DNA from: Nitrospirota bacterium
Lineage (GTDB): Bacteria > Nitrospirota > Thermodesulfovibrionia > Thermodesulfovibrionales > JdFR-85
Assembly (NCBI GenBank): GCA_015492645.1
Contig: WGER01000068.1
Location: forward strand, 23,605-87,604
Length of the DNA: 64,000 bases
Direction: 5' to 3'
In this document: piece by piece, positions 726 to 28,988 of the stretch
Position numbering within the stretch: position 1 is the first letter of the stretch
How the letters are laid out: every line of letters begins with the position of its first letter
The notes under the pieces: generated by a model
Told to the model about the DNA's origin: nothing
What the model saw: the letters and a program-made list of their open reading frames with translations, nothing else
The model's database searches: none
Made by a program: the position numbers and the translations under genes

Positions 726-1738
726 TTATCAGCGAGTAAGGCATTCGTCTTTTTTATCTGGCTGTATAACCTCACTGCGTGGGGGAAACAGGAGGATGGA
801 AAGACCAAGGCCAGAATAATTATAGCAACTGTCCCAATCAGTTCATTGAAAGATGATACCCCTCTGAACAATAGGGGTATCTCTCTGAACGCCTCTGTTC
901 TTTTTCCGGATATTACTTTATAAAAAATGACCTCCTTGGCCTTTATCCTGTGAAGCATGTTTAGAATTCCTTGATGCTCCTTTATGTTATGGAAGGTTGA
1001 GAGTCTCTCTATAACTCTCTGCCTCATGTGTGCAAGATCTCTGTTGAGCAGGGCAATATCTTCATTGTTATTCCTGTCCTTTGCCAGGGTTATATTTCCA
1101 CCATGGAGCCTGTATCTGCCGAGTACCTCAGGGATATAAACCGCCCTCCCAAAACAGGATGCTATTACTGTCAGATAGAAATCTATTCCCCGCATGATAT
1201 CTTCTGGAATCGGGAATGCCCTCAGGATCTGGTCTCTCTTGAAGGCGAAGGAACTGCCACCACAGAATATCCTGCCTGATATTACGTCCTTTGTAATATA
1301 TCCATTAACACCCTCTTTATATCCAAAGGCCCTGTAAAAATTGGGGTAAATGGCCTCACCGTTGTCATCTATCAATTCGATACAGTGATATACTATTGCT
1401 GTATCCTCACTTTCAGTGAAAGGTCTTACCACCTTTTCTATCCTGTTTTTATACCATTCATCATCTGCATCAAGAAAGGTTATTATCTCTCCCTTGCTGA
1501 GCAACATACCACGGTTTCTTGCACTTGCAATACCCTTCCTCTGTTGAAAGAGATAGGTTATTCTGCCCTGATAACTCTTCAGGACCTTTTTTGTCTCATC
1601 TGTTGATCCGTCATCCACAACAATTATCTCTATCAACTCGAGGGGGTAAGTTTGGCTGAGGATGCTCTTGATTGCCCTTTCTATAAACCGACCATAATTA
1701 AAGGCTGGAATGATTACACTAACGGTGGTACTATCCAT
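704..1738 (-). CDS. Family 2 glycosyltransferase (GT-A fold)
   Basis: ORF 704..1762. VSVIIPAFNYGRFIERAIKSILSQTYPLELIEIIVVDDGSTDET and FLDADDEW (DxD) are the classic GT2 signature. The track start is TTG, so I prefer the first ATG (MDSTTVSV) at 1738. Confidence 0.8.
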   Translation of the reverse strand: MDSTTVSVIIPAFNYGRFIERAIKSILSQTYPLELIEIIVVDDGSTDETKKVLKSYQGRITYLFQQRKGIASARNRGMLLSKGEIITFLDADDEWYKNRIEKVVRPFTESEDTAIVYHCIELIDDNGEAIYPNFYRAFGYKEGVNGYITKDVISGRIFCGGSSFAFKRDQILRAFPIPEDIMRGIDFYLTVIASCFGRAVYIPEVLGRYRLHGGNITLAKDRNNNEDIALLNRDLAHMRQRVIERLSTFHNIKEHQGILNMLHRIKAKEVIFYKVISGKRTEAFREIPLLFRGVSSFNELIGTVAIIILALVFPSSCFPHAVRLYSQIKKTNALLADKWEQLRS

Positions 1739-1745
1739 CACAATA

Positions 1746-1775
1746 ATAATAAAAATTATCAAATTAATTTTTCAA
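1746..1775 (-). promoter_or_regulatory. Putative sigma-70-type promoter of the GT2 gene, predicting a leaderless or near-leaderless mRNA
   Basis: Minus strand reads TTGAAA (1775-1770) - 18 nt - TATTAT (1751-1746) - 7 nt - ATG (1738). No Shine-Dalgarno sequence. Confidence 0.4.
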
Positions 1776-1779
1776 TTCA

Positions 1780-1847
1780 AGACTGACTCTCCAGAGTTGC
1801 CGCTTATTGTAGTTTTTGACCAAAAGTCTAACGGTAAAGTCGGGGCT
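1780..1847 (+). repeat. Intergenic mosaic repeat, locus A (right part of M2 region + M3 module)
   Basis: GAGTTGCCGCTTATTGTAGTTTTTGACCAAAAGTCTAACGGTAAAGTCGGGGCT aligns with 29424-29480 (GAGTTCCTGCTGCCCACTGTAGTTTTGACCGAAAGCCTAACGACAAATCTGGGACC) and with 8195-8227. Confidence 0.7.
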
Positions 1848-1882
1848 AATAGTGTAGTTTGTGCAAACACCCCGTTTCAGGT

Positions 1883-1888
1883 TAAAAT
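1883..1888 (+). promoter_or_regulatory. Putative -10 box upstream of rluB (near-leaderless)
   Basis: TAAAAT at 1883-1888, 9 nt before ATG 1898. No Shine-Dalgarno sequence. The -35 is weak (TTGTGC around 1859). Confidence 0.35.
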
Positions 1889-1897
1889 TAAAGTTCT

Positions 1898-2623
1898 ATG
1901 GAAGAGCGGATTCAGAAGATTCTGGCGAGGATGGGGGTCGCATCACGGAGGGCGGCTGAGGAGATGATCCGTGAAGGGAGGGTAACGGTTAATGGACAGG
2001 TGGCCACCATAGGGATGAAGGCAGACCCTGACAGGGACCACATAAAGGTTGATGGCAGGCTTCTTCTGAGACCTGAGCCAAGGGCATACCTCATCCTCAA
2101 TAAACCAAAGGGGGTACTGACCACACTTGAGGACCCGGAGGGCAGACCCACAATCAAGGAACTCTTAAAGGGGGTAAAGTTCAGGGTCTATCCCGTGGGC
2201 CGGCTGGACTTCAACTCAGAGGGACTGCTTATACTTACCAATGATGGGGACCTTGCCTACAGACTGATACACCCAAAGTTCAAGGTCCCAAAGACCTATC
2301 TTGTTAAGGTGAAGGGGATAGTGGAAGAGAAGAAACTCGATCTACTGAGGCGGGGAATAAGGCTTGAAGAGGGCGTCACTGCACCTGCAGAGATAAGGAG
2401 GGTTTTCATGCCAAGGACAAAGAACAACACCTGGCTCGAGATAACCCTCCATGAGGGTAAGAAGAGACAGATAAGGAGGATGTTTGAGAAGATCAGGCAT
2501 CCTGTGCTTAAACTGAAGAGGATCAGGATAGATGGTATAAGGCTTGGAGACCTGAAACCAGGGCAGTGGAGATATCTCAGTCCAGAAGAGGTGAAGAAAC
2601 TGAAGGCAGCAGTTGGGTTATAA
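1898..2623 (+). CDS. rluB: Pseudouridine synthase, RsuA/RluB family, with N-terminal S4 RNA-binding domain
   Basis: S4 motif RIQKILARMGVASRRAAEEMIREGRVTVNG, followed by the catalytic core VGRLDFNSEGLLILTNDGDL. Confidence 0.85.
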   Translation: MEERIQKILARMGVASRRAAEEMIREGRVTVNGQVATIGMKADPDRDHIKVDGRLLLRPEPRAYLILNKPKGVLTTLEDPEGRPTIKELLKGVKFRVYPVGRLDFNSEGLLILTNDGDLAYRLIHPKFKVPKTYLVKVKGIVEEKKLDLLRRGIRLEEGVTAPAEIRRVFMPRTKNNTWLEITLHEGKKRQIRRMFEKIRHPVLKLKRIRIDGIRLGDLKPGQWRYLSPEEVKKLKAAVGL

Positions 2624-2647
2624 TAAAAGATTAGTGGAGGTTAGGGG

Positions 2648-4420
2648 ATGTTCAGAGATAAGTGTTGTGGAGAGGTTGGAGAAAGGGACATTGGGAGGAT
2701 TCTGACACTGTCAGGCTGGGTCTTCCGGAGAAGGGACCACGGTGGTCTCATCTTCGTGGACCTGAGGGACAGGACCGGCATAATACAGGTGGTCTTCTCA
2801 CCAGAGGTCTCCCCTGACTCCCATGAACTGGCCCATACACTCAGAACAGAGTATGTGATAACGGTCAGGGGGGAGGTGAGGAGGAGGCCAGAGGGTACCG
2901 AAAACCCTGATATCCCAACAGGTAATTTAGAACTCTATGTGTCTGAACTGAGGATACTCTCCAGGGCCGCCCCTCTACCGTTCATGCTCGACGAACCCAA
3001 GGAGGTATCGGAGTACCTCAGACTGAAATTCAGATACCTGGACCTCCGGAGACCGGAGATGTACCGTAACCTACTGATGAGACACAGGGTCACAAAACTT
3101 GTAAGGGACTTCATGGACTCCAAGGGCTTCCTGGAGATAGAGACCCCGATGCTCACAAAGTCAACCCCTGAAGGTGCAAGGGATTACTTGGTGCCGAGCA
3201 GGGTCAACCCGGGCCACTTCTATGCACTCCCACAGTCACCTCAATTATTCAAACAGATACTGATGGTGGCAGGTGTGGACAGGTACTTCCAGATCGTTAA
3301 GTGCTTCAGAGACGAAGACCTGAGGGCCGATCGGCAGCCCGAGTTCACGCAGATTGATGTTGAGATGTCATTTGTGGACATGGAGGATGTAATAAACTTA
3401 GTTGAGGAGATGCTCTCATTTGTCTTCAGAGAGGCCCTCTCTGTTGACCTCTCCAGACCCTTCCCGAGGTTCACTTACGCAGAGGCGATGGAGAGGTTTG
3501 GTACTGACAAGCCCGACCTCAGGCTGGATCTCGAACTGAAGGAGATGGGAGACCTTGCTGAAAAGGGCAGTTTCAGGGTGTTCCTTGATGCGATTAGTGA
3601 CGGTGGAAGGGTGAAGGGGCTCTGTGGAAAGGGGATGGCGGGGCTCTCCCGAAGAGAGATTGATCTCCTCACTGAAGAGGCTCAATCCTATGGGGCAAAG
3701 GGGCTTGCCTGGATAAAGGTTAAGGGAGGCTTTGACTCCCCAATTGCCAAGTTCTTCCCCACGCAGGTGCTTGAGCAGATGGCAGAGAGGCTGGGCGCAG
3801 AGGATGGAGACCTCATGCTCTTCGTGGCTGACTCGGAGGAGGTTGTCCATAACACCTTGGGGCGGCTCAGGGTCTCCATTGGCAGGAGACAGGGGCTCAT
3901 GAGGGATGGCTACAGTTTCTGCTGGATACTGGACTTCCCCCTCCTTGAATGGGACCCTGATGAAGGGAGGTTCGTGGCGATGCACCATCCCTTCACGAGC
4001 CCGAAGGAGGAAGATATACCGCTGCTTCTGGAGGCCGACCCACAGGACAGACAGACACTGGCATCACTGAAGGCGAGGGCCTATGACATAGTGCTGAATG
4101 GCTATGAGATAGGTGGTGGTAGCATAAGGATACACAGGCCCGATATCCAGAAGAAACTCTTTGAGGTATTGAACCTCTCCCATGATGAGGTGGAAGAGAA
4201 ATTCGGCTTTCTCATAGAGGCATTGAAGTATGGGGCCCCTCCCCATGGAGGCATAGCCCTCGGACTGGACAGACTGCTGATGCTGATGGTTGGTGCCGAC
4301 AGCATCAGGGATGTTATAGCCTTTCCGAAGACCCAGAAGGCCCAGTGCCTGCTGAGTGGTGCCCCATCACCTGTTCAGGAGAGGCAGTTAAAGGAGTTAC
4401 ACATCAAACTGGACCTGTAG
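2648..4420 (+). CDS. aspS: Aspartate--tRNA ligase (bacterial type, 590 aa)
   Basis: FRRRDHGGLIFVDLRDRTG, QSPQLFKQILMVAG, FRDEDLRADRQPEFTQID, GGGSIRIH and GLDRLLML are class IIb AspRS motifs. GGAGG lies upstream of the ATG. Confidence 0.95.
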   Translation: MFRDKCCGEVGERDIGRILTLSGWVFRRRDHGGLIFVDLRDRTGIIQVVFSPEVSPDSHELAHTLRTEYVITVRGEVRRRPEGTENPDIPTGNLELYVSELRILSRAAPLPFMLDEPKEVSEYLRLKFRYLDLRRPEMYRNLLMRHRVTKLVRDFMDSKGFLEIETPMLTKSTPEGARDYLVPSRVNPGHFYALPQSPQLFKQILMVAGVDRYFQIVKCFRDEDLRADRQPEFTQIDVEMSFVDMEDVINLVEEMLSFVFREALSVDLSRPFPRFTYAEAMERFGTDKPDLRLDLELKEMGDLAEKGSFRVFLDAISDGGRVKGLCGKGMAGLSRREIDLLTEEAQSYGAKGLAWIKVKGGFDSPIAKFFPTQVLEQMAERLGAEDGDLMLFVADSEEVVHNTLGRLRVSIGRRQGLMRDGYSFCWILDFPLLEWDPDEGRFVAMHHPFTSPKEEDIPLLLEADPQDRQTLASLKARAYDIVLNGYEIGGGSIRIHRPDIQKKLFEVLNLSHDEVEEKFGFLIEALKYGAPPHGGIALGLDRLLMLMVGADSIRDVIAFPKTQKAQCLLSGAPSPVQERQLKELHIKLDL

Positions 4421-4429
4421 GAGACACTG

Positions 4430-6217
4430 ATGCTTAGACTGAAGAGGACATATGCGATAACCAGAGGTAAGGTGATCTTTGACTACACATCACTTTACTG
4501 TGAAACTCCGGAGGCACTCCTCAGAAGTCCCCTCTTTGAGGAGGTGATCAGGAGGTTTATAAGAAGACATGCCAGCAAGGGGAGTTCCATCTTTGCATTC
4601 CTCAGTTACAATCTCCCCTGGACCTCCAGGGATGAACTGCCCTTCGAGGTGGTCAAACTATTCCGGCTCCTCTTCAGTTACACTGCCGACGAGGTAGCCT
4701 CCATGCACGAGCAATACAGGCCCATACTCTCAGACAGGGAGAACCTCTATGAGTTTGTGGAAGAACTCTACAACTACTGGAGGAGGTTTGAGAGGTTCTT
4801 TTATATAGAGGCCCCTGAGCGGTCCAACCTGCCAAGGAGCACCATCCACCATGCCCAGTTCATCAAGGCAAATGAAGAATTAAAAAATCTTGTCCTTTAT
4901 GTATATAGAAAGATAAGCGAACATATAACAGGAAAGAACCCGAGGGTATACAGGCAGTTGCCTGCAGGTGCAAATATGGGTATGCTCCTTGAGAGGATCC
5001 CCTGGAGGTGTCCTGACAGATACAGGAGACTCCTTGAGGTCCCGTTCATCAGGCTCACCCTGATGGAACCCCCCCTCATCCTGTATCCTGAGATGAACAG
5101 GAGGAAGGGAAGGTTTGAGGAGGTCCATGATATACCCGATGGCGTTCTGGATATAGACCCCTCTGAGTGGTACTGCTTCCCTGCAAAGGTGGGGGAACTG
5201 AATGGGTTTATATACTTCCACCAGGACTTCATATCTCTGGGACTGTCACTTTCAAACCTCTTTGAGATCGCTGATTACGAAGACATACACAATCAGAGGC
5301 CTGACCTGATACTGGTGTTTGGCATCAGGGGGCTCTCCTCAGCAGAGGAGGGTGTGAAGACGGTCTTCTTTGATGACAGGGAAAATGATCTGATGGTTGG
5401 GTTGATTGAACATTCCCCTGAGGTGGACTACTTTGGCTACTTCAAGAAGATGACCCTCACGCTTCACAACATCGTGATGATAAAGAGGGGCAGACTCCCC
5501 CTCCATGGTGCAATGGTCTGTTTAAAACTGAAGGGTGGTGAGAGCGCAAATGTGATACTTGTTGGTGACAGCGGTGCCGGTAAGTCAGAGACACTGGAGG
5601 CATTGAGGGTCCTGGCTGATGAGTACATCTGTGAGATGAGGGTGATCTTTGATGATATGGGTTCCCTCGGTTTAGATGCCACCGGAAGGGTGGTCGGGTA
5701 CGGAACCGAGATAGGTGCCTTTGTGAGACTTGATGACCTGCAGCCAGGGTATGCATACGAGGAGATAGACCGGAGCATCTTCATGAACCCTGACAAGACG
5801 AATGCCAGACTGATAATCCCGGTCACCAGATACCACCATGTGGTGAAGGGATACCCTGTTGACTTCTTTCTCTACGCGAACAACTATGAGCAGGTGGACA
5901 GTGAACACCCTGTGATAGAGTTCTTCCATACCCCTGAGGAGGCATTGGAGGTCTTTCGGCACGGGGCAAGGCTGGCAAAGGGGACAACGGATGAGGTGGG
6001 TCTCGTGCATACCTACTTTGCCAACCCCTTTGGTGCCCCCCAGAGGAGGGACGACCATGAGGTCCTTGCCAGCAGATACTTTGAACTGATGTTCCATCAG
6101 GCTGTGGCTGTGGGCCAGATAAGGACAAGGCTGGGGATCGAGGGATATGAGCAGGAGGGTCCAAAGGAGGCAGCAAAGGGCCTCTTTGAGGTGATGAGAA
6201 GGAGGACGGGCTTCTGA
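4430..6217 (+). CDS. Uncharacterised protein with HprK/PEPCK-superfamily P-loop domain in its C-terminal half
   Basis: LPLHGAMVCLKLKGGESANVILVGDSGAGKSETLEALRVLADEY...VIFDDMG resembles the HPr kinase GxSGxGKSE P-loop followed by DD, and the PEPCK-ATP kinase-1a region. The roughly 350 aa N-terminal region has no motif I recognise. AGGAG lies 6 nt upstream of the ATG. The gene starts 9 nt after the aspS stop and overlaps the next gene by 1 nt (TGATG). Confidence 0.55.
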   Translation: MLRLKRTYAITRGKVIFDYTSLYCETPEALLRSPLFEEVIRRFIRRHASKGSSIFAFLSYNLPWTSRDELPFEVVKLFRLLFSYTADEVASMHEQYRPILSDRENLYEFVEELYNYWRRFERFFYIEAPERSNLPRSTIHHAQFIKANEELKNLVLYVYRKISEHITGKNPRVYRQLPAGANMGMLLERIPWRCPDRYRRLLEVPFIRLTLMEPPLILYPEMNRRKGRFEEVHDIPDGVLDIDPSEWYCFPAKVGELNGFIYFHQDFISLGLSLSNLFEIADYEDIHNQRPDLILVFGIRGLSSAEEGVKTVFFDDRENDLMVGLIEHSPEVDYFGYFKKMTLTLHNIVMIKRGRLPLHGAMVCLKLKGGESANVILVGDSGAGKSETLEALRVLADEYICEMRVIFDDMGSLGLDATGRVVGYGTEIGAFVRLDDLQPGYAYEEIDRSIFMNPDKTNARLIIPVTRYHHVVKGYPVDFFLYANNYEQVDSEHPVIEFFHTPEEALEVFRHGARLAKGTTDEVGLVHTYFANPFGAPQRRDDHEVLASRYFELMFHQAVAVGQIRTRLGIEGYEQEGPKEAAKGLFEVMRRRTGF

Positions 6218-8097
6218 TGAAGGTTACCCTACATGATGGGACTATTCTGGAGGTCTCAGAGGGTGAGACCCTCTATGAGGTCCTCACCCGGAGTGGTATA
6301 TATCTGACCGCCTCCTGTGGCGGGAAGGGTGTATGTGGAAAGTGCAGGGTGAAGGTCCTTGATGGCGAGTTTGATTGTCGTGGCTATGCCAAACTCACAA
6401 AGGCGGAAATCGATGCGGGCATTGTCCTCGCCTGCCAGACGGTGCCAAGGACCGACCTCAGGATCGAGATCCCCCAGGAGTCAAGACTCACCGTTGGCGA
6501 CAGGATAGCACTCTCAAGGACGAAGGACCTTGCTGGAATCCTACAGGACTATGGCGCCTCTGTATCACCCCTTATCAGGAGGACCACCCTTCAACTGCCA
6601 CCTCCAAGCCTTGACGACAACCTCTCTGACCTAGAAAGGATAAAAAGATCACTCGATGAAGAGGGTATAACGCTGAGGTATCCGAGGAGGTTCTTCGAAG
6701 ACCTCGCCCAGCACCTCAGAAGGCACCAGTGGGGGGTGAACCTCTGCTGGCAGCCTGACAACAGAGATGCCCTGTTTATAGAGCCCCTGTCATCAGAGAA
6801 GAGATACGGCCTGGCAGTGGATGTGGGCACGACCACAGTGGTCGTTTACCTGGTGGACCTTGACACAGGGGAGGTGATAGACACTGGCTCCACCTATAAC
6901 TCCCAGATGAGATACGGTGATGATGTGATAACAAGGATCATAAATGCCACAGAGGGAGGTCTCCTGAGAGAACTGAGAAAGGCGGTGATAGAGGATGTGA
7001 ATGACCTGCTGGAGGTTATGTTAAAGAGACACGGGCTGGACAGGAGGAAGGTAGAGTCTGTCTCTATTGCTGGCAACACCACAATGAGTCACCTGTTCTG
7101 GGGACTTGATCCCGAGTTTATAAGGCTCGACCCCTACATACCAACGATCAATCTGTTTCCAGTCTGGTATGCAAGGGAAGCGGGATTGAGGACAAATCCT
7201 GATGCACCTGTCTTCACCCTGCCCTGTGTGGCCAGTTATGTGGGTGGGGATATAGTGGCAGGTGTGCTTGCCACAGGTATCCACAGGCGGCACGAACTCT
7301 CCCTGTTCATGGATATCGGCACGAACGGGGAGATCGTGATAGGCAACAGGGACTGGCTTGTCACAGCAGCCTGCTCTGCTGGTCCCTGCTTTGAGGGGAG
7401 CGGTATAAAATGCGGGATGAGGGCGACAGAGGGCGCGATTGAGGGGGTGAGGATTGACCCTGTCACCCTTGAACCTGAACTGAAGGTAATAGGTGACACC
7501 AGACCCATGGGTATATGTGGCTCAGGGATGATCGATGCAGTGGCCGAGATGTTCCTGAAAGGGGTGGTTGACCAGAAGGGCAGGCTCCAGGATACCCCCA
7601 ACAATGCAAGGGTGAGAGAGGGAGAGGATGGTCTTGAGTACCTATTTTACGGCGAGGACAACAGAGAGGTGGTACTCACCCAGGTTGACCTGGATAACCT
7701 GATAAGGGCAAAGGGTGCTATATTTGCAGGAATATCACTGCTCCTTAAGGAGGTCGGCCTTGACCTGAACTCCATAGAGAAGGTCTACATAGCAGGTGGC
7801 TTTGGTAATTATATAGACGTCAGGAAGGCGATAGTGCTTGGTATGTTGCCAGACCTGCCTGAAGAGAGGTTCCAGTTCGTGGGCAATACATCTGTCGCAG
7901 GGGCCTACCTCTGCCTGCTGTCAGAGGATATGAGGAGGGAGGCGGAGACCGTGGCATCTATGATGACCTATATTGAACTGTCGATGAAGCCGAACTACAT
8001 GGACGAGTTTATGTCAGCCCTCTTTCTGCCACATACAGACCTGGGCCTCTTTCCCACAGTCAGGGGCCTCCTTCAGGAGATGAGTAAAAACTCCTGA
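6217..8097 (+). CDS. 2Fe-2S ferredoxin domain fused to an ASKHA-type ATPase (DUF4445; RACo-like reductive activator of corrinoid proteins)
   Basis: N-terminal plant-type ferredoxin motif SCGGKGVCGKCRVKV...LACQT. The ASKHA phosphate-1 motif YGLAVDVGTTTVVVYLVD is followed by FMDIGTNGEIV and AGGFGNY. This architecture is typical of the RACo/AcsV family. Confidence 0.75.
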   Translation: MKVTLHDGTILEVSEGETLYEVLTRSGIYLTASCGGKGVCGKCRVKVLDGEFDCRGYAKLTKAEIDAGIVLACQTVPRTDLRIEIPQESRLTVGDRIALSRTKDLAGILQDYGASVSPLIRRTTLQLPPPSLDDNLSDLERIKRSLDEEGITLRYPRRFFEDLAQHLRRHQWGVNLCWQPDNRDALFIEPLSSEKRYGLAVDVGTTTVVVYLVDLDTGEVIDTGSTYNSQMRYGDDVITRIINATEGGLLRELRKAVIEDVNDLLEVMLKRHGLDRRKVESVSIAGNTTMSHLFWGLDPEFIRLDPYIPTINLFPVWYAREAGLRTNPDAPVFTLPCVASYVGGDIVAGVLATGIHRRHELSLFMDIGTNGEIVIGNRDWLVTAACSAGPCFEGSGIKCGMRATEGAIEGVRIDPVTLEPELKVIGDTRPMGICGSGMIDAVAEMFLKGVVDQKGRLQDTPNNARVREGEDGLEYLFYGEDNREVVLTQVDLDNLIRAKGAIFAGISLLLKEVGLDLNSIEKVYIAGGFGNYIDVRKAIVLGMLPDLPEERFQFVGNTSVAGAYLCLLSEDMRREAETVASMMTYIELSMKPNYMDEFMSALFLPHTDLGLFPTVRGLLQEMSKNS

Positions 8098-8107
8098 CCC
8101 CTTCTGT

Positions 8108-8227
8108 TGCCTAAATTGCCGTTAGAATCTTTCGGTAAGGGTCCCAGGAAAGTCGGAGATTTTTCTGGGCAGGACCCCCAGCCACCTTTTATGTCTTTTG
8201 ACCAAAGTCTAACGGCAGTCTGGGACC
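8108..8227. repeat. Intergenic mosaic repeat, locus B part 1 (inverted M3 - M2 hairpin - M3)
   Basis: CTAAATTGCCGTTAGAATCTTTCGGTAAG (8111-8139) is the inverted complement of the M3 core TTGACCAAAGTCTAACGGCAGT (8198-8219). Between them lies the M2 hairpin CCCAGGAAAGTCGGAGATTTTTCTGGG (8143-8169). Confidence 0.75.
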
Positions 8228-8270
8228 TAACCCCAAATCCGAATTTGACTGAAGTTCAAAATGTTTTCCT

Positions 8271-8413
8271 CTGTCAGGGCAACTTGCCTCAGAACTGAAT
8301 TAATGCGATAGGATTTTATTAAGATCAGGGCTCATCGCATTCAGTTTATGGATGAAGGCTATACATCCGGTCTTACGCACTGGTGGTATCGCTGAATTCA
8401 GGTTCTTCGGCAA
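8271..8413 (+). repeat. Intergenic mosaic repeat, locus B part 2 (M4 - M1)
   Basis: M4 is GCCTCAGAACTGAATTAATGCGATAGGATTTTATTAAGATCAGG (8286-8329), with internal hairpin 8293-8309 / 8334-8346. M1 is CGCACTGGTGGTATCGCTGAATTCAGGTTCTTCGGC (from 8376). Confidence 0.7.
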
Positions 8414-8465
8414 GTTGTCCTGACACTGACTATGGTCAATTTAGGATTTTGGCTAATCCAAATCC

Positions 8466-8496
8466 TTGACAATAAAGGCTTCACATGGGTTATCAT
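8466..8496 (+). promoter_or_regulatory. Possible promoter of yebC operon
   Basis: TTGACA at 8466-8471, then TATCAT at 8491-8496 with a suboptimal 19-nt spacer. A leader follows with GAAGGAGGG before GTG 8524. Confidence 0.3.
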
Positions 8497-8523
8497 AAAT
8501 AGTTATGTTTGAAGGAGGGTCAT

Positions 8524-9279
8524 GTGGCAGGCCACAGTAAATGGGCACAGATAAAGCATAAAAAGGCGATTGTAGATGCAAGAAAGGGAAAACTCTTCTC
8601 AAAACTGGCAAAGGAGATATCTGTAGCAGCCCGCCTTGGTGGTGGTGATCCATCCATGAATCCCCGTCTCCGAACCGCAATCGAAAAGGCGAAAGATGCG
8701 AATATGCCGCAGGACAACATCAGGAGGGCGATCCAGAAGGGGACAGGGGAATTGCCAGGTGCATCCTATGAAGAGGTGTATTACGAGGGCTATGGACCCG
8801 GAGGTGTGGCCCTCATGATTCATGCCCTTACTGACAACAAGAACAGGACAGTGGCAGAACTGAGACATATACTCAGCAAACACGGAGGAAACCTCGGAGA
8901 GGCGGGTTGTGTCTCGTGGATATTTGAGAAGAAGGGGTATATCCTCGTTAGTAAGGAGAGTATAGATGAAGATAGCCTGATGGGTATTGTTATTGAGGCA
9001 GGTGCAGAGGACCTCCGGTCAGACCCGAGGGAAGATAACTACGAGGTCATAACCTCGGTAGAAGAGTTTCATAATGTGAAGGAGGCCATTGAGAGAGCGG
9101 GGATAAGGCCCGTCAGTGCAGAGATAACGATGCTGCCAAAGACAGTGGTAAGGATAGAGGGAGATGTGGCTGAGAGGATGTTGAGATTAATGGACGCCCT
9201 CGAAGAACATGATGATGTCCAGAATGTCTATGCAAACTTTGATATACCAGAAGAGGTCATGGCCAAGGCAGGGGCATGA
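8524..9279 (+). CDS. yebC: YebC/PmpR family DNA-binding transcriptional regulator
   Basis: [31 protein letters not shown] is the canonical YebC N-terminus. I prefer GTG at 8524 with GAAGGAGGG 5-6 nt upstream; the track start at 8509 adds 5 atypical residues. Confidence 0.9.
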
Positions 9280-19730: not shown

Positions 19731-22700
19731 CTATGTGTGAGTTCCGAAGCCTCCCCCTCCAGGTGTCTTTATTATGATAGATTCACCAGGTGCCACCCTG
19801 AGGGTCACCCTGTGCTGAAGCCTTCTGATACCATTCCGGGTCCTCAGGAGGTTCACACCCCTCAGACCGTTCTCTCCGCCCTTTATACCCTTCGGAGGCA
19901 CGGCCCTCCTCTCAGACACTATGCTTACAGTAGCCCGATTCAGGAACTCCACCTCCCTGATAATCCCGTCTCCACCCCTGTATCTACCCCTGCCTCCGGA
20001 TCCCCTCCTCACAAGGAACCTTCTCAGCCTCACACCGGGGTGTCTCAACTCAAGGAACTCGGGGTCTGTTATCCTGGTATTGGTCATATGGACCTGTACA
20101 GCAGAGCCACCATCGCAACCCTCTGATCCACCACCTCCTCCTCCGATCGTTTCGTAGTAGGGAGGCTCTCCATCGACCTGAAACAGGAGGTTATTCATCG
20201 TCCCCTGAGACGCCGCAGCCACCCCCAGTGCCATGAACAGCAGGTCAGCAAGTCTCTGTGATGTCTCCACATTTCCACTGGCCACAGGAGCGGGAGGCTG
20301 TGGGTTGAGGATGGAGCCCTCAGGGACAGACAGTTTCACTGGATTCAGGCACCCACTGTTCAGGGGTATTTCCCTTGCTATAAGGCATCTGAGCAGATAC
20401 AGAAGCACAGACTTTACCACAGACAGAGGTGCATTCAGGTTGTCTCTCAGATGCTGTGGACCGGTGCCGCTGAAGTCGAATTCAACTGATGTGGTCCCAG
20501 GAGGGTCGTCTCCAGCAGTGATCTTCACAGTTACCGCAAGAGGGGTACCATCATCAAGGTGCTCCTTTTGTGCGGACTGAAACACCCTCTCCCCATCCAG
20601 TAGCCTCCAGAGGGCCTCCCTCACTGCTATCTCTGCATTCTGCTGGATGAAGTACATATATCTCTGAACGGTCTCAACCCCGTATCTCTGGATCAACCTC
20701 CAGAGCAGTCTTTCACCCTTTCTACAGGCAGCGATCTGGGCTATGATGTCTGCCATATTCTGTTCTATATTCCTCACAGGGTAGGGCGCCTCAGTGAGTG
20801 CCTGTCTGAGTTCTTCCTCATGGAACTGGCCGTCCCTCATCAGCAGAAAGTTGTCTATCAGCACACCCTCTTCTGAGATGTCTCCTGCCTCAGGAGGTAT
20901 AGAGCCAGGTGTTGTGCCACCTATGTCTGCATGATGTCCCCTTGCTGCAGTGAAGAAGAGGAGGTCTCCCCTGTCAGAGAATACGGGCTGTATCACCGTA
21001 AGGTCGGGCAGATGGGAGCCACCCCTGTAGGGGTTATTCGTCAGATAGAGGTCGCCCGGCCTTATATCCCCTCTCCTCTCCTTTATCAACTCCCTTACTG
21101 TCTCTGCCATGGACCCGATATGCACAGGGATATGGGGTGCATTTGCGACAAGGGACCCGTCAGGGGCAAATATGGCACAGGAGTAGTCCTGTCTCTCCCT
21201 TATATTCACGGAATGGGCAGTACTCCTGAGGGTGTGGCCCATCTCGGTTGCCACTGAACTGAAGTGGTTGTTGAAGACCTCCAGAAGTACAGGATCCGGG
21301 ACATCGATCTCCTTTCTCGGAGAACTCTTCATCACCTTTCTCGTCGCAACGATTGAGCCATCTTCCTTCACCTCCGCATCAAAACCATCCTCTATCACCA
21401 GTGTTGTATAGGGTTCAACCACGATACAGGCCCCCCTCAGGAGATGCCCAACCGGCAGGTCCTTCCTCTGATAGACCGGGACAATCTGTGGTCCCCTGGT
21501 GGTGAACATCCTCTGATGGCAGATTGGCTTAGGATGATCAACTGCCTCAGGTCTGCAGTATATTCCTTCAAAGAGGGTCTCCTGCTGTTTGAAGACGGAT
21601 CTTATCGTAACCACCTCGATCTCTGCCTCGGGCCTGTAAAATCCGTACAGGACCTTATGCCTTTCAGCAAATTCCCTCAGACTCTCCTTGTAGGTACTGT
21701 ACCTGACTGTAATCGGTCTCTCAGAACCCTTTATCCTCAAGTCGATGTATCTTTCGGTGAGGTCATAGGCCACCCCTTCAGAGGACTCCAGTTCTGAGAA
21801 TGCCCTGTTGAGGGACCTGTGGGTCTGCTCTGTGTATTTAACAAACAGGCTCCTTGACAGCCTCTTCTCCGGCATGGCGATCCCTATCCCGTATGCAGAG
21901 AGCATGCTGGAGAGTGGATGGAAGATCACCCTCTGTATCTCAAGTAACTCTGCCACCTTGCAGGCATGCTGCCCTGCTGCTCCGCCGTAACTCACCAAGG
22001 TGTACTCCCTGACATCCATTCCCTTTGCCACTGTGGTCTCCCTTACCGCAAGGGCCATCTTCTCATTTGCTACCTCCAAGAAACCCATCGCCACCTCCTC
22101 CTCTGTGAGGACCTTATCCGTCTCCTTCCGGATGATCTCGGACAGCCTCTTAAAACCCTCTCTCACAGGCTCAAGGACCACAGGGGAGTGTCTGTCCCTG
22201 CCGAAGGTCCTTGGCATGAACCCTGGCAGGAGCCTGCCTGTCATGAGGTTCGCATCAGTGATGGTGAGGGGGCCTCCAAGGCCGTAACAGGCAGGCCCCG
22301 GGACAGCACCTGCTGAGTCAGGGCCCACCAGCATCCTGCCGTCCTGAAACCTGAGGATAGAGCCGCCTCCAGAGGCGATTGTATGGATACTGATCATCTC
22401 TGTCTGGACCTCTATACCTGCTATCCTTGTATCATCGAGCATCTCGAGGGTCCCGTCATATCTACAGACATCAGTGGAAGTCCCTCCCATATCAAGACCG
22501 ACCAGCCTCTTCGAGCCTGTCTTTTCCGCCACATCTTCAAGTGCTACAGCACCCCCTGCCGGCCCTGACAGTATCGCATCCCTCGCCGTGAACTCATTCA
22601 GGGCCTTTGTCCCACCGGAACTGCAGAAGAACTCCACCCTGATGCCCCCGACCTCCCTGCTGAGCATATCCCTGTACCTCTGAAGCACAGGGCTCAGGTA

Positions 22701-23330
22701 TGCCTCAAGAACCGTTGCATGCCCCCTCGTCACCACCCTTATCCTGTTGGAGACGGCATGAGACAGATACACCTCCCTGAAGCCCAGCCCCCTGAGCACC
22801 TCACCTGCCAGCAGTTCATGCTCAGGGTTTATCCAACTATGTAGAAAGACCACCGCCACTGCATCAAACTCCTCCGGCCCCACCTGCCTCACTGCCTCTT
22901 CAACCATCCCTGCCTCTAAGGGGATAACCACCCTCCCATCAGGCCCCATCCTCTCTTCCACCTCCACCACCTTTCTGTAAAGGGGAGAGGGTCTCTTTAT
23001 ACAGATCTGGAAGAGGTGCTCCCTCTCCTGATAACCGATCTGAAGGAGGTCCCTGAACCCCTTGGTTGTGACGAGCAGGACACTGCCACCCTTTCTCTCA
23101 AGCAATGCATTTGTGACCACAGTCGTCCCAACCCTTATACACTCCACCCTATCCTGAGGGAGGGAATCCTCCGGATCTATACCCAGTATCTCCTTGATAC
23201 CCTGAATGGCAGGCTCACCTGTACCACTGTCAGATAACACCTTGAGGGTGTGTATACCTCCATTCGGGTCGACCCCTATGATATCCGTGAAGGTCCCTCC
23301 CCTGTCAGCCGCAAAGCGCCACTTCCTCAA
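19731..23330 (-). CDS. Fused hydantoinase/oxoprolinase family protein (HyuA + HyuB domains; ATP-dependent 5-oxoprolinase-like)
   Basis: 1199 aa. N-terminal WRFAADRGGTFTDIIG (hydantoinase A/ASKHA). The C-terminal half has DYSCAIF, HIPVHIGSM and NNPYRGGSHLPD (hydantoinase B/oxoprolinase). Confidence 0.85.
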   Translation of the reverse strand: MRKWRFAADRGGTFTDIIGVDPNGGIHTLKVLSDSGTGEPAIQGIKEILGIDPEDSLPQDRVECIRVGTTVVTNALLERKGGSVLLVTTKGFRDLLQIGYQEREHLFQICIKRPSPLYRKVVEVEERMGPDGRVVIPLEAGMVEEAVRQVGPEEFDAVAVVFLHSWINPEHELLAGEVLRGLGFREVYLSHAVSNRIRVVTRGHATVLEAYLSPVLQRYRDMLSREVGGIRVEFFCSSGGTKALNEFTARDAILSGPAGGAVALEDVAEKTGSKRLVGLDMGGTSTDVCRYDGTLEMLDDTRIAGIEVQTEMISIHTIASGGGSILRFQDGRMLVGPDSAGAVPGPACYGLGGPLTITDANLMTGRLLPGFMPRTFGRDRHSPVVLEPVREGFKRLSEIIRKETDKVLTEEEVAMGFLEVANEKMALAVRETTVAKGMDVREYTLVSYGGAAGQHACKVAELLEIQRVIFHPLSSMLSAYGIGIAMPEKRLSRSLFVKYTEQTHRSLNRAFSELESSEGVAYDLTERYIDLRIKGSERPITVRYSTYKESLREFAERHKVLYGFYRPEAEIEVVTIRSVFKQQETLFEGIYCRPEAVDHPKPICHQRMFTTRGPQIVPVYQRKDLPVGHLLRGACIVVEPYTTLVIEDGFDAEVKEDGSIVATRKVMKSSPRKEIDVPDPVLLEVFNNHFSSVATEMGHTLRSTAHSVNIRERQDYSCAIFAPDGSLVANAPHIPVHIGSMAETVRELIKERRGDIRPGDLYLTNNPYRGGSHLPDLTVIQPVFSDRGDLLFFTAARGHHADIGGTTPGSIPPEAGDISEEGVLIDNFLLMRDGQFHEEELRQALTEAPYPVRNIEQNMADIIAQIAACRKGERLLWRLIQRYGVETVQRYMYFIQQNAEIAVREALWRLLDGERVFQSAQKEHLDDGTPLAVTVKITAGDDPPGTTSVEFDFSGTGPQHLRDNLNAPLSVVKSVLLYLLRCLIAREIPLNSGCLNPVKLSVPEGSILNPQPPAPVASGNVETSQRLADLLFMALGVAAASQGTMNNLLFQVDGEPPYYETIGGGGGGSEGCDGGSAVQVHMTNTRITDPEFLELRHPGVRLRRFLVRRGSGGRGRYRGGDGIIREVEFLNRATVSIVSERRAVPPKGIKGGENGLRGVNLLRTRNGIRRLQHRVTLRVAPGESIIIKTPGGGGFGTHT

Positions 23331-27243: not shown

Positions 27244-28185
27244 TTATTCTCTGTAGATACATTCCTCGGGCCTTTTGTCACTCCTGAGCCCGAGGAAGAC
27301 AGGTGCCCTCAGTTTTCCAGACTCGGTCCACTCCATGGCTGTCACCCTTACCACTGTATCGGGTATTACCCATCTCACCCCTGAGGGATGCTCAAATAAG
27401 GGGACCCCTGTCTCCTTTTCTCTGAGTATCTCTATAATCTCTCTCCTCTCCTTCTCAGTAAAGCCTGTGCCAACCTGGCCGATATGGACAAGTGTACTGT
27501 TCCTGTAAAGGCCCAACACAAGGGAAGCAAAGGGCCTCTTCTCTGAGTCGATCCATCCGCAGACAACAGCGTCTATATCGATCGTCTTCTTTATCTTAAG
27601 CCAGGAGCGTGACCTCACACCTGGCTGGTATAGACTCCTTCTCTCCTTTGCCATGATCCCTTCAAAGCCCCTCTTTACAGCCTCTCTAAAGAGGGGTATC
27701 CCCTCTCTGTAGGTCCTTGAGATGATGATATGTTCACCCTCCCTCACCAGTTCCTCAAGCAGTCTCCTCCTTTCCATCAGGGGCCTTTTGAAGAGTCTCT
27801 CCTGTCTGAAGTAGAGTATATCAAAAACGATATACATGGCAGGAGACAGCCTTGAGAGGATGGATATCCTGTGCGGGTCAGTGATGTGCTCCCTCCTCTG
27901 GAGAGTCTTAAAATCAGGTACACCTTCCTTTAACATCACAATCTCTCCATCCAGTATGACATCCTCTCCATCAACTGCCTTAGCAAGGGAACCAAACTCG
28001 GGATACCTGTAAGTGATATCCAGAAGTCTCCGGTTCTGAAGCCTTACATTGCTACCCTGGATATAGGCTATACACCTTGTGCCGTCCCATTTGAGTTCAT
28101 AGAGGAATTCTTCAGAGTCCAAGGGTTCCTTAGCCTTTTCTGCAAGCATGGGTTTTATAGGCCAGCATTTAAAGGGCGAGGCCAT
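27244..28185 (-). CDS. ligD: ATP-dependent DNA ligase, LigD ligase domain only (no polymerase or phosphoesterase domains)
   Basis: Adenylation motif I YELKWDGTRCIAY (KxDG). Also GEIVML, EGIMAK, WLKIK, and a C-terminal OB-fold region. 313 aa. It lies directly downstream of ku. Confidence 0.85.
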   Translation of the reverse strand: MASPFKCWPIKPMLAEKAKEPLDSEEFLYELKWDGTRCIAYIQGSNVRLQNRRLLDITYRYPEFGSLAKAVDGEDVILDGEIVMLKEGVPDFKTLQRREHITDPHRISILSRLSPAMYIVFDILYFRQERLFKRPLMERRRLLEELVREGEHIIISRTYREGIPLFREAVKRGFEGIMAKERRSLYQPGVRSRSWLKIKKTIDIDAVVCGWIDSEKRPFASLVLGLYRNSTLVHIGQVGTGFTEKERREIIEILREKETGVPLFEHPSGVRWVIPDTVVRVTAMEWTESGKLRAPVFLGLRSDKRPEECIYRE

Positions 28186-28193
28186 TGACTGGA

Positions 28194-28988
28194 TTATCCA
28201 GCAGTCTTTCTTTTCCGGGTCTTTGGCTCTGTTACAGAGAGACTCTTCTTCAATGCCTCCATGAGACTCACAACCCTTTCGGCCTCTCTTGCTGGTTTTA
28301 CCTTCACCTCTCCACCGCTTATCTTCTGATTGATCAATTCCATCAGGGCCTCAGTGGACCTGTCGTGATACTCTGAGATATCAAAACGTGCAGAAAATCT
28401 CTCCACCAGTTCCTCTGCAAGGGCGAGGGCCTCCTTGCTCACCTCCATCTCTTCCGGTATGGTGATAAAGTCTGTACTTGCGATCTCGTTGGCGAAGTGG
28501 AGTGTATGGATTGCGAGGACCTTCTGATAGGGTCTGAGAATACCTATATGTTCTTTCCCCCTCATGGCAAACCTCAGGAGCCCGACTCTTCTCTTGTTCT
28601 GAAGGGCCTTCTTCAGCAACAGATATGCCTCAAGGCCATCCTTCTCAGGAGCGAGATAGTAGGTGCTATCAAAATAGACAGGATCAATCTCCTCTAAGGG
28701 TACAAAAGAGATTATCCTGATCGCCCTGCTTTCTTCCCGGAAGAGGGACTCCAGTTCCTCATCAGAGATGATCACGTATCTGTCCTTTTCATATTCATAA
28801 CCGTGGGTCACATCGGACCACTCTACCTCTTTCTGGCAGGTGGGGCAGTACCTCTCATATTTCAGATGAGTGGAGCAGGCCTTATGCAGTAGATGCAGCG
28901 GGACCCCTCTCTTTCTGACGGCAGAGTAGAGTTTTACAGGCACAGAAAGCAGGGCTACTGATAGATTCCCCTTCCACAGGGCCTTCAT
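28194..28988 (-). CDS. ku: Ku protein (non-homologous end joining)
   Basis: ALWKGNLSVALLSVPVKLYSAV...YERYCPTCQKEV...GYEYEKDRYVIISDEELE is the typical bacterial Ku core. The C-terminal tail is basic. Confidence 0.9.
   Translation of the reverse strand: MKALWKGNLSVALLSVPVKLYSAVRKRGVPLHLLHKACSTHLKYERYCPTCQKEVEWSDVTHGYEYEKDRYVIISDEELESLFREESRAIRIISFVPLEEIDPVYFDSTYYLAPEKDGLEAYLLLKKALQNKRRVGLLRFAMRGKEHIGILRPYQKVLAIHTLHFANEIASTDFITIPEEMEVSKEALALAEELVERFSARFDISEYHDRSTEALMELINQKISGGEVKVKPAREAERVVSLMEALKKSLSVTEPKTRKRKTAG

What the first reader, a model, noticed from the sequence alone, without database searches (positions are those of the whole stretch)
4430..8097. Translationally coupled pair: HprK/PEPCK-like P-loop protein plus 2Fe-2S/ASKHA RACo-like ATPase, tucked behind aspS
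The 595 aa ORF has a long N-terminal region I cannot assign. Its C-terminal region contains LPLHGAMV...VILVGDSGAGKSETLEAL...FDDMG, the P-loop signature of the HPr kinase / PEP carboxykinase superfamily. Its stop overlaps the start of the next gene (TGATG at 6215-6219).

The next gene encodes a 626 aa protein with a plant-type 2Fe-2S ferredoxin domain fused to an ASKHA ATPase (DUF4445). That is the architecture of RACo-type ATP-dependent reductive activators of corrinoid proteins.

No corrinoid protein, methyltransferase or CODH/ACS gene is adjacent. A kinase-like P-loop partner for a RACo-like reductase is not a combination I know to be characterised. It may be an ATP-driven redox-repair or activation module for an unknown client.
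Basis: partly seen in the sequence, partly recalled or inferred. Interest (0 to 1): 0.6.

Follow-up and report, generated by a model that had tools for sequence, protein, structure and literature searches.

The report
Unlinked PEPCK-like enzyme beside corrinoid activator
Two real, tightly packed genes sit behind aspS: an ordinary corrinoid-protein reactivating ATPase (RACo) and a member of a large, strongly conserved, unstudied branch of the PEP-carboxykinase fold. They are neighbours only in one small bacterial lineage, so they are probably not a functional pair.

Summary
ORF1 (4430-6217, 595 aa) and ORF2 (6217-8097, 626 aa) are intact, and TGA and ATG share base 6217.

ORF2 is a textbook RACo. 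It has the Fer2, RACo_linker, Raco_middle and RACo_C_ter domains and matches the solved C. hydrogenoformans RACo (3ZYY) over its full length at E = 4e-173.

ORF1 has no Pfam or NCBIfam family. Its AlphaFold model hits only PEP carboxykinases (Foldseek top 50, E about 1e-12). The PEPCK catalytic motifs are conserved: Y-x-G-x-x-K-K, the P-loop, DD and N-x-R. It belongs to a distinct family, more than 7,000 proteins in one search. That family has no characterised member that I could find.

The "module" reading is not supported:
- Only 3 of 80 species-representative loci, the closest relatives, have RACo next to ORF1.
- A genome nested inside that clade has aspS-RACo with no ORF1 between them.
- In two other genomes both genes are present but unlinked, 58 kb apart in one and on separate contigs in the other.

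Neighbours of ORF1 elsewhere are mostly aspartate-handling enzymes: aspA, aspS, argGH, purA and an aminotransferase. This points to a role at the PEP/oxaloacetate node.

Interest is modest and rests on the ORF1 family alone.

The parts
4430..6217 (+). ORF1, 595 aa. It belongs to a distinct, strongly conserved family with the PEP-carboxykinase fold. Probable NTP-dependent phosphoryl-transfer enzyme.
   Evidence: ORF and translation. Pfam gives no hit at E<=0.01; the best sub-threshold hit is PEPCK_ATP at 13.6 bits, below the gathering score of 26.5. NCBIfam gives only a PEPCK subfamily hit of 16.6 bits against a cut-off of 369. AF2 model: pLDDT 75, pTM 0.79. Foldseek against PDB: all top 50 hits are ATP- or GTP-PEPCK, E 1e-12 to 1e-10. 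hhalign against E. coli Pck: E 1.4e-5 to 3.9e-5.
5426..5449 (+). Codons for residues 333-340, DYFGYFKK. This is the counterpart of the PEPCK substrate/metal motif Y207-G-G209-E-M-K212-K213.
   Evidence: hhalign pairs Y334/G336/K339/K340 with E. coli Y207/G209/K212/K213. These residues are invariant in alignment A1. K339 is invariant across the 47 divergent family representatives.
5564..5590 (+). Codons for residues 379-387, GDSGAGKSE. This is the P-loop (kinase-1a), the counterpart of E. coli Pck G248-LSGTGKTT.
5645..5662 (+). Codons for residues 406-411, IFDDMG. This is the counterpart of PEPCK IGDDEH (D268/D269, metal ligand).
5801..5821 (+). Codons for residues 458-464, NARLIIP. This is the counterpart of PEPCK NTRVSYP (R333, which binds OAA/PEP).
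6200..6219 (+). Junction between the two ORFs. AGGAGG (6200-6205) lies inside the end of ORF1, and the ORF1 stop TGA (6215-6217) overlaps the ORF2 start ATG (6217-6219) by one base.
   Evidence: The overlap is not conserved: relatives have gaps of 12, 12 and 74 nt.
6217..8097 (+). ORF2, 626 aa. RACo-type reductive activator of corrinoid proteins: a plant-type [2Fe-2S] ferredoxin domain (Cys34, 40, 43, 73), a linker, a middle domain and an ASKHA ATPase domain.
   Evidence: Pfam: Fer2 2.6e-13, RACo_linker 2.7e-12, Raco_middle 2.1e-59, RACo_C_ter 1.4e-106. NCBIfam AcsV: 685 bits against a cut-off of 800. PDB: 3ZYY at E 4e-173 over residues 11-615, and 4C1N.
1898..4420 (+). Upstream same-strand housekeeping genes: rluB-like pseudouridine synthase (1898-2623) and aspS (2648-4420). 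With the two ORFs they form a tightly packed run, with gaps of 24 nt and 9 nt.
   Evidence: The order rluB-aspS-(ORF1)-RACo is shared with L007-L009. L091 has the same order without ORF1.

Best explanation
My reading is that the two genes are functionally independent. They lie next to each other in a compact run of same-strand housekeeping genes: rluB, aspS, ORF1, ORF2.

**ORF2.** It is a conventional RACo. Its [2Fe-2S] domain accepts a low-potential electron. ATP binding and hydrolysis in the ASKHA domain then drive that electron uphill onto Co(II) of an inactivated corrinoid protein. The client is most likely the CoFeSP of a Wood-Ljungdahl pathway, or another B12 enzyme such as a MetH that lacks its reactivation domain. 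I infer that the client is encoded elsewhere in the genome.

**ORF1.** It belongs to a separate, widespread, strongly conserved family with the PEP-carboxykinase fold. It keeps the nucleotide and phosphoryl-transfer machinery (P-loop GDSGAGKS, DD) and the PEPCK substrate-site residues (Y334, K339/K340, R460). It carries a larger, helix-rich N-terminal region.

The most likely mechanism for ORF1 is NTP-dependent phosphoryl transfer to or from a small carboxylate or enolate at the PEP/oxaloacetate node. That would feed or drain the aspartate family.

The stop/start overlap gives co-expression in this genome only.

**Shown:** gene structures, domain and fold assignments, motif conservation, and the lack of conserved linkage.
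**Inferred:** the substrate of ORF1, the client of ORF2, and co-transcription.
For: **ORF2 is a RACo.**
- It has the full RACo domain set.
- It matches solved RACo 3ZYY at E 4e-173 over its full length, with the CGGxGxCGKC...C cluster motif aligned.
- Its orthologues in other Nitrospirota are lone genes among unrelated housekeeping genes.
- DUF4445/RamA-like proteins are genetically linked to B12 reactivation for methionine synthase in bacteria (PMC5764234).

**ORF1 is PEPCK-like.**
- All top 50 Foldseek hits are PEPCKs.
- hhalign against E. coli Pck pairs the catalytic motifs.
- The only sub-threshold Pfam hit shared by several family members is PEPCK_ATP.
- Mean column identity is 74% across 30 homologues whose source names span several phyla.
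- 712 clusters at 50% identity match the family profile.

**The two genes are independent.**
- RACo is adjacent to the ORF1 homologue in 3 of 80 loci.
- No neighbour is conserved.
- L091 has RACo 85% and AspRS 89% identical to L008, yet it has aspS-RACo without ORF1.
- The two genes are 58 kb apart on one contig.
- They lie on different contigs of one MAG (L012 and L092).

**Neighbours of ORF1 homologues point to aspartate and oxaloacetate.**
- aspA lies directly downstream in 7 loci, down to 57% ORF1 identity.
- argG and argH are nearby in two lineages.
- purA and class-I aminotransferases also occur as neighbours.
- aspS lies upstream in the window clade.
Against: - The tight packing (1-nt overlap here, 12-nt gaps in two relatives) would also fit a real partnership that exists only in this clade.
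- I could not test whole-genome co-occurrence. Most ORF1-bearing anaerobes may also carry some RACo-like gene.
- ORF1 fails every curated PEPCK model. The His that ligates Mn in PEPCK (H232) does not align with a conserved His: H359 lies 4-5 residues upstream. The counterpart of R65 could not be aligned. True PEPCK chemistry is therefore unproven.
- The aspartate theme rests on a handful of lineage-level events and was not tested statistically.
- The model has low-confidence loops, and TM-scores are only 0.38-0.50.
Confidence: 0.6

Rival explanations
1. One reading: ORF1 and ORF2 form a dedicated two-component module. The P-loop protein would act as a kinase-like partner, for example by loading, gating or phosphorylating, and so help the RACo-like reductase repair or activate an unknown redox client.
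For: - The genes share a one-base stop/start overlap with a Shine-Dalgarno sequence inside ORF1.
- The same order is kept in the three nearest species-level relatives.
- Matching longest-contig lengths in the two hit lists suggest that several further close metagenomic homologue pairs share a contig. Adjacency was not checked for these.
Against: - Adjacency is confined to ORF1 homologues about 77-80% identical to one another. Loci at 74-75% (L029, L010) already lack it.
- L091, nested inside the clade, has lost ORF1 from between aspS and RACo.
- Two genomes have both genes unlinked.
- The ORF1 family is present in organism groups such as Anaerococcus, Clostridium and Mycoplasmatota, in quite different contexts.
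- The solved RACo acts on CoFeSP in a two-protein complex, entry 4C1N; that it needs no third partner is from my own knowledge of that work.
Confidence: 0.08
2. ORF1 has the PEPCK fold but a different chemistry. It would be a small-molecule kinase or ligase acting on another anionic metabolite, for example an aspartate-family or C4-dicarboxylate intermediate, rather than interconverting PEP and oxaloacetate.
For: - ORF1 fails the PEPCK profile models.
- The N-terminal ~270 residues align with nothing at the sequence level and contain a helical insertion and family-specific invariant Arg/Trp residues.
- The position of H232 is not conserved.
- The family profile does not reach canonical PEPCKs among 1.84 billion representatives.
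Against: Residues that in PEPCK contact OAA/PEP and CO2 are kept: the counterparts of Y207, K212/K213 and R333. The neighbourhood theme (aspA, aspartate consumers) fits OAA supply equally well.
Confidence: 0.25
3. ORF1 is an HprK/P-like protein kinase/phosphorylase that regulates a protein target.
For: - The P-loop GDSGAGKSETLEAL and the preceding LHGAMV resemble, from my memory of HprK/P sequences, the HprK/P motifs.
- One family member gives a 12-bit Hpr_kinase_C hit.
Against: - No HprK structure appears among the top 50 Foldseek hits; all are PEPCK.
- PEPCK-specific motifs outside the P-loop are present: YxGxxKK, NxRxxxP and AKGTTxE.
- No HPr or PTS genes recur among the neighbours.
Confidence: 0.05

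Closest known systems
ATP-dependent PEP carboxykinase (PckA, EC 4.1.1.49; Pfam PF01293; e.g. E. coli 1AQ2/1OS1, T. thermophilus 2PC9)
   Same: - Overall fold: Foldseek probability 1.0, E about 1e-12, with 385-533 aligned columns.
- Same order and identity of the catalytic motifs: Y-x-G-x-x-K-K, P-loop GxSGxGK[ST], DD, N-x-R-x-x-x-P and AK..T.E.G.
   Different: - About 12-18% identity.
- Below every curated threshold: PEPCK_ATP 13.6 bits against 26.5; NCBIfam 16.6 bits against 369.
- Longer N-terminal region (about 330 aa against about 228 aa) with a helical insertion.
- The Mn-ligand His is not in register.
- The R65 counterpart is not identified.
- No biochemical data.
HPr kinase/phosphorylase C-terminal domain (PF07475)
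   Same: Same superfamily P-loop, with GDSG-GKSE and an upstream H-G-x-x-V strand.
   Different: There is no significant profile or fold hit. ORF1 has a full PEPCK-like two-domain body and PEPCK-specific motifs.
RACo of Carboxydothermus hydrogenoformans (PDB 3ZYY; complex with CoFeSP 4C1N) / AcsV (NCBIfam NF040756)
   Same: ORF2 shares the four-domain architecture and the Cys ligands. Full-length similarity is E 4e-173 (580 bits).
   Different: ORF2 is not encoded beside acs/CoFeSP genes. Its AcsV model score of 685 bits is below the cut-off of 800. The client in this organism is unknown.
RamA-like/DUF4445 B12-reactivation proteins for methionine synthase (Price et al. 2018, PMC5764234)
   Same: Ferredoxin plus DUF4445 proteins, encoded as lone genes and needed to reactivate a B12 enzyme.
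   Different: By my own recollection those proteins are only distantly related to CoFeSP-type RACo. ORF2 is much closer to the CoFeSP activator.

Membership tests
PEP carboxykinase (ATP), PF01293 / NCBIfam PckA models | Scores above the curated profile threshold | tested here: not met
   No Pfam hit at E<=0.01. PEPCK_ATP scores 13.6 bits against a gathering score of 26.5. NF006821 scores 16.6 bits against 369.
PEP carboxykinase (ATP), PF01293 / NCBIfam PckA models | PEPCK two-domain fold | tested here: met
   All top 50 Foldseek PDB hits are PEPCKs: E 1.4e-12 to 1.4e-10, probability 1.00, TM 0.38-0.50. The model has pLDDT 75.
PEP carboxykinase (ATP), PF01293 / NCBIfam PckA models | Kinase-1a P-loop (GxxGxGK[ST]) and the DD metal/nucleotide motif | tested here: met
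   G379-DSGAGKS-E387 and D408/D409 align with E. coli G248-K254-T255 and D268/D269. They are conserved at >=90% in 47 divergent members.
PEP carboxykinase (ATP), PF01293 / NCBIfam PckA models | Substrate-site residues Y207, K212/K213 and R333 | tested here: met
   Y334, K339/K340 and R460 align to them. K339 is invariant; Y334 and R460 are conserved at >=90%.
PEP carboxykinase (ATP), PF01293 / NCBIfam PckA models | Mn2+-ligand His232 and OAA-binding Arg65 | tested here: inconclusive
   H232 aligns with C364, which is not conserved. The conserved H359 lies 4-5 residues upstream. The N-terminal region containing R65 is outside the hhalign alignment.
PEP carboxykinase (ATP), PF01293 / NCBIfam PckA models | Catalyses OAA + NTP <-> PEP + CO2 + NDP | not testable with these tools
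   Needs an enzyme assay or genetic complementation.
HPr kinase/phosphorylase (PF07475) | Profile or fold match to Hpr_kinase_C | tested here: not met
   ORF1 gives no hit. One family member scores 12.1 bits against a gathering score of 33.3. No HprK structure is in the Foldseek top 50.
RACo (reductive activator of corrinoid proteins) | Architecture of N-terminal [2Fe-2S] ferredoxin, linker, middle domain and ASKHA ATPase | tested here: met
   All four Pfam domains score above their gathering thresholds. The pattern C34-x5-C40-x2-C43-x29-C73 is read from the translation.
RACo (reductive activator of corrinoid proteins) | Full-length homology to an experimentally characterised RACo | tested here: met
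   3ZYY at E 4e-173, residues 11-615 against 15-630. 4C1N at E 3e-148.
RACo (reductive activator of corrinoid proteins) | Encoded with its corrinoid client (acs/CoFeSP or methyltransferase cluster) | tested here: not met
   No such gene is found among the ORFs scanned in the 64-kb window or next to five orthologues. This feature is common but not obligatory for the family.
AcsV (NCBIfam NF040756) | Score of at least 800 bits | tested here: not met
   685.3 bits.
Conserved ORF1-RACo gene pair (the proposed module) | Adjacency conserved across the family's distribution | tested here: not met
   RACo is adjacent in 3 of 80 loci. RACo domains occur in 3 of 130 immediate neighbours. L091 lacks ORF1 between aspS and RACo.

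The most novel reading that the evidence does not exclude
ORF1 represents a previously unrecognised class of PEPCK-fold enzymes. The class is widespread in anaerobes and has no Pfam/NCBIfam model and no studied member that I could find. It would either be a fourth type of PEP/oxaloacetate-interconverting enzyme or carry out a new phosphoryl-transfer reaction tied to aspartate/C4 metabolism. A much less likely extension is that, in this Nitrospirota clade, it has been recruited to work with RACo.
Probability: 0.35. Interest if true: 0.6.

Novelty: new variant of a known kind. Interest (0 to 1): 0.33.

Why it matters
The proposed redox-repair module does not hold up, so nothing new follows from the pairing.

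What remains is a family with the PEPCK fold. It has more than 7,000 homologues in one search and 712 clusters at 50% identity. It keeps 60-77% identity between MAGs that their sources label as different phyla (Nitrospirota, Firmicutes, Actinomycetota, Nitrospinota), and it has no curated model or known function.

If the family proves to be the PEP/OAA enzyme of these anaerobes, or to have a new reaction, metabolic reconstructions of many uncultured lineages would change at a central node. ORF2 is a routine annotation.

Tried and rejected
- **Sequence searches of ORF1 against PDB.** phmmer and the A1 profile gave only noise: P-loop ABC proteins and designer repeat proteins. I did not use them.
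- **Literature.** Searches for PEPCK-like/HprK-like uncharacterised families found nothing on this family. The heliobacterial "PEP carboxykinase-like" mention gave nothing that bears on this family.
- **Regulatory RNA.** I looked for a cobalamin riboswitch or other RNA near the genes. The only Rfam hit in the window is one tRNA.
- **Promoters and terminators.** The scan of 1500-9000 is not above shuffled expectation, so it gives no information on operon limits.
- **A conserved partner of ORF1.** I searched by clustering all ORFs within +/-10 kb of 81 loci and by Pfam-scanning 130 immediate neighbours. No universal partner appeared.
- **Defence-system or mobile-element origin.** I considered this and dropped it. 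Composition is uniform, neighbours are housekeeping genes, and conservation is very high.
- **Alternative start for ORF2.** I considered this and rejected it. Homologues align from residue 1.


Full report
**1. Observation**

The ORF table and translations confirm two same-strand ORFs. ORF1 is 4430-6217 (595 aa) and ORF2 is 6217-8097 (626 aa).

The junction reads ...AGGAGGACGGGCTTCTGATGAAG.... TGA (6215-6217) and ATG (6217-6219) share base 6217, and AGGAGG lies at 6200-6205. aspS ends at 4420, 9 nt before ORF1, with AGGAG across its stop.

Both proteins are full length relative to many homologues.

**2. ORF2 is an ordinary RACo**

Pfam finds Fer2, RACo_linker, Raco_middle and RACo_C_ter, all above threshold. 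NCBIfam's AcsV model gives 685 bits, below its cut-off of 800.

The protein aligns over residues 11-615 with the crystallised Carboxydothermus hydrogenoformans RACo (3ZYY, E 4e-173). It also aligns with the RACo chains of the RACo-CoFeSP complex 4C1N. The CGGxGxCGKC...C cluster motif is included in the alignment, and the window protein has Cys34/40/43/73.

The mechanism known for this family is as follows (my own knowledge of the RACo literature). A low-potential electron passes from the [2Fe-2S] cluster to Co(II), driven by ATP in the ASKHA domain. This mechanism can be carried over to ORF2.

The client is not in the window. None of the roughly 40 ORFs I scanned is a corrinoid protein, a corrinoid methyltransferase or CODH/ACS. 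There is also no cobalamin riboswitch.

That is normal for this subfamily in Nitrospirota. Five orthologues (58-66% identity) sit alone among unrelated housekeeping genes: purL/cysS, panC/ispG, and cytochrome-c biogenesis or histidinol dehydrogenase/PilZ genes.

A second possible client class is a B12-dependent methionine synthase without a reactivation domain. Ferredoxin-DUF4445 proteins are genetically required for such enzymes (PMC5764234).

**3. ORF1 is a distinct PEPCK-fold family**

- ORF1 has no Pfam hit at E<=0.01. Its only NCBIfam hit is a 16.6-bit match to a PEPCK subfamily over residues 333-437.
- At permissive thresholds, PEPCK_ATP is the best or a recurrent weak hit in 3 of 6 family members. 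Scores are 13.6-18.8 bits against a gathering score of 26.5.
- An AlphaFold2 model built from a 30-sequence alignment has pLDDT 75 and pTM 0.79.
- All top 50 Foldseek hits of that model in the PDB are ATP- or GTP-dependent PEPCKs. E-values run from 1.4e-12 to 1.4e-10 at probability 1.0. Alignments span 385-533 columns with TM 0.38-0.50.

Profile-sequence hhalign against E. coli Pck gives E 3.9e-5 and 1.4e-5. It pairs the following residues:

| ORF1 | E. coli Pck |
|---|---|
| Y334/G336/K339/K340 | Y207/G209/K212/K213 |
| S381/K385/S386 | S250/K254/T255 |
| D408/D409 | D268/D269 |
| R460 | R333 |
| AKGTTDE | AKLAGTE |

Of these, Y334, G336, K339, K385, S386, D408, D409 and R460 remain invariant or at least 90% conserved in 47 divergent representatives.

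Two things are not matched. The Mn-ligand His232 aligns with a variable position, and the conserved H359 lies 4-5 residues upstream. The N-terminal ~270 residues, which would hold the R65 counterpart, are not aligned at the sequence level.

The family is large and tightly conserved:
- More than 7,167 hits, the top 120 at 60-77% identity. Source names for these hits include Nitrospirota, Nitrospinota, Firmicutes and Actinomycetota.
- Mean column identity of 74% in alignment A1.
- 712 clusters at 50% identity at E<=1e-3. None of the 150 best listed matches looks like a canonical PEPCK, and the total is small.
- Members occur in cultured Thermosulfurimonas, Neomoorella, Clostridium, Anaerococcus and Youngiibacter species, among others.

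I found no paper on this family.

**4. Is the pair a module?**

I fetched 80 species-representative loci with up to 10 kb of flank on each side where the contig allowed. Several lines of evidence argue against a module:

- tblastn with the window RACo finds it next to the ORF1 homologue only in L007, L008 and L009, the three nearest relatives. It is absent from the other 77 loci.
- Loci whose ORF1 is 74-75% identical to the window (L029, L010) already lack it.
- Clustering all flanking ORFs gives no neighbour family present in more than 11 of 81 loci.
- A Pfam scan of 130 immediate neighbours returns 137 different families, with RACo domains in 3.
- L091 carries a RACo 85% and an AspRS 89% identical to those of L008, and it nests inside the clade in a neighbour-joining tree. 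Yet its order is rluB-aspS-(15 nt)-RACo, with no ORF1.
- On contig Ga0314848_000038 the two homologues are 58 kb apart.
- In MAG GCA_015492515.1 they lie on different contigs, L012 and L092.
- The one-base overlap is unique to the window. L007, L008 and L009 have gaps of 12, 12 and 74 nt.

The simplest reading is that these are two independent genes in a compact housekeeping run. The linkage is recent, shallow and dissociable.

**5. What ORF1 probably does**

Where ORF1 homologues keep a neighbour over some evolutionary depth, that neighbour tends to handle aspartate or its precursor:

- Aspartate ammonia-lyase lies directly downstream in 7 loci whose ORF1 proteins diverge to 57% identity. The aspA assignment rests on NF008909 at 620 bits, above its cut-off of 510.
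- argG-argH lie beside it in two lineages.
- purA is the neighbour in Thermosulfurimonas.
- Class-I aminotransferases occur in 3 loci.
- AsnC-type regulators occur in Clostridium-type loci.
- aspS is upstream in the window clade.

Together with the retained PEPCK substrate-site residues, this favours a role at the PEP/oxaloacetate node, with oxaloacetate being the aspartate precursor. This is an inference from a few lineage-level events, not a statistical test. A different small-molecule substrate remains quite possible.

**6. Comparison with known systems and verdict**

ORF2 is a member of a known family. ORF1 works like a PEPCK-superfamily enzyme but fails the membership tests of the curated PEPCK and HprK families. 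I classify it as a new variant of a known kind.

The proposed ATP-driven redox-repair pair is not supported. Interest is modest (0.33) and attaches to the uncharacterised ORF1 family, not to the pairing.

Noticed in passing
window 52402-53187 (+): A 261-aa protein with a PF04060 'FeS' domain plus DUF3786. As I recall, this FeS domain is the type found at the N-terminus of the CoFeSP large subunit. It is the only gene in the window with a corrinoid-pathway flavour, and it lies about 44 kb from the RACo gene.
   Followed up: no
L092 4722-5768 (-) and L093 4791-5852 (-): In two Nitrospirota MAGs the RACo orthologue has a divergently transcribed DUF6866 gene (about 350 aa) directly upstream. This may be a recurring partner of lone RACo genes.
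   Followed up: no
L045, L046, L049, L052, L057, L068, L073 (directly downstream of the ORF1 homologue): An aspartate ammonia-lyase gene follows the ORF1-family gene on the same strand in seven loci whose record titles name FCPU426, uncultured proteobacteria or uncultured bacteria. The intergenic gaps measured in L046 and L052 are about 90-110 nt. This linkage is deeper than the RACo linkage.
   Followed up: partly
window 19731-23330 (-): A single 1199-aa ORF fuses the Hydantoinase_A (with its N-terminal region) and Hydantoinase_B/oxoprolinase domains.
   Followed up: no
window 27244-28988 (-): Adjacent genes for an ATP-dependent DNA ligase (LigD-like) and Ku. This is a bacterial NHEJ pair.
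   Followed up: no
window 33864-34967 (-): SfsA (OB plus restriction-endonuclease-like domains) is fused to a C-terminal DUF123 domain in one 367-aa ORF.
   Followed up: no
window 8098-8508: A 411-nt non-coding gap separates the RACo gene from yebC. It has no Rfam match and only short ORFs of 63 aa or fewer. It probably marks the end of the aspS-ORF1-RACo transcription unit.
   Followed up: partly
ORF1 residues 172-186 (window 4943-4987): RVYRQLPAGANMGML is almost invariant across the family, but the model gives it pLDDT below 50. It could be a mobile active-site lid, and it is one place to look for the missing counterpart of PEPCK R65.
   Followed up: no
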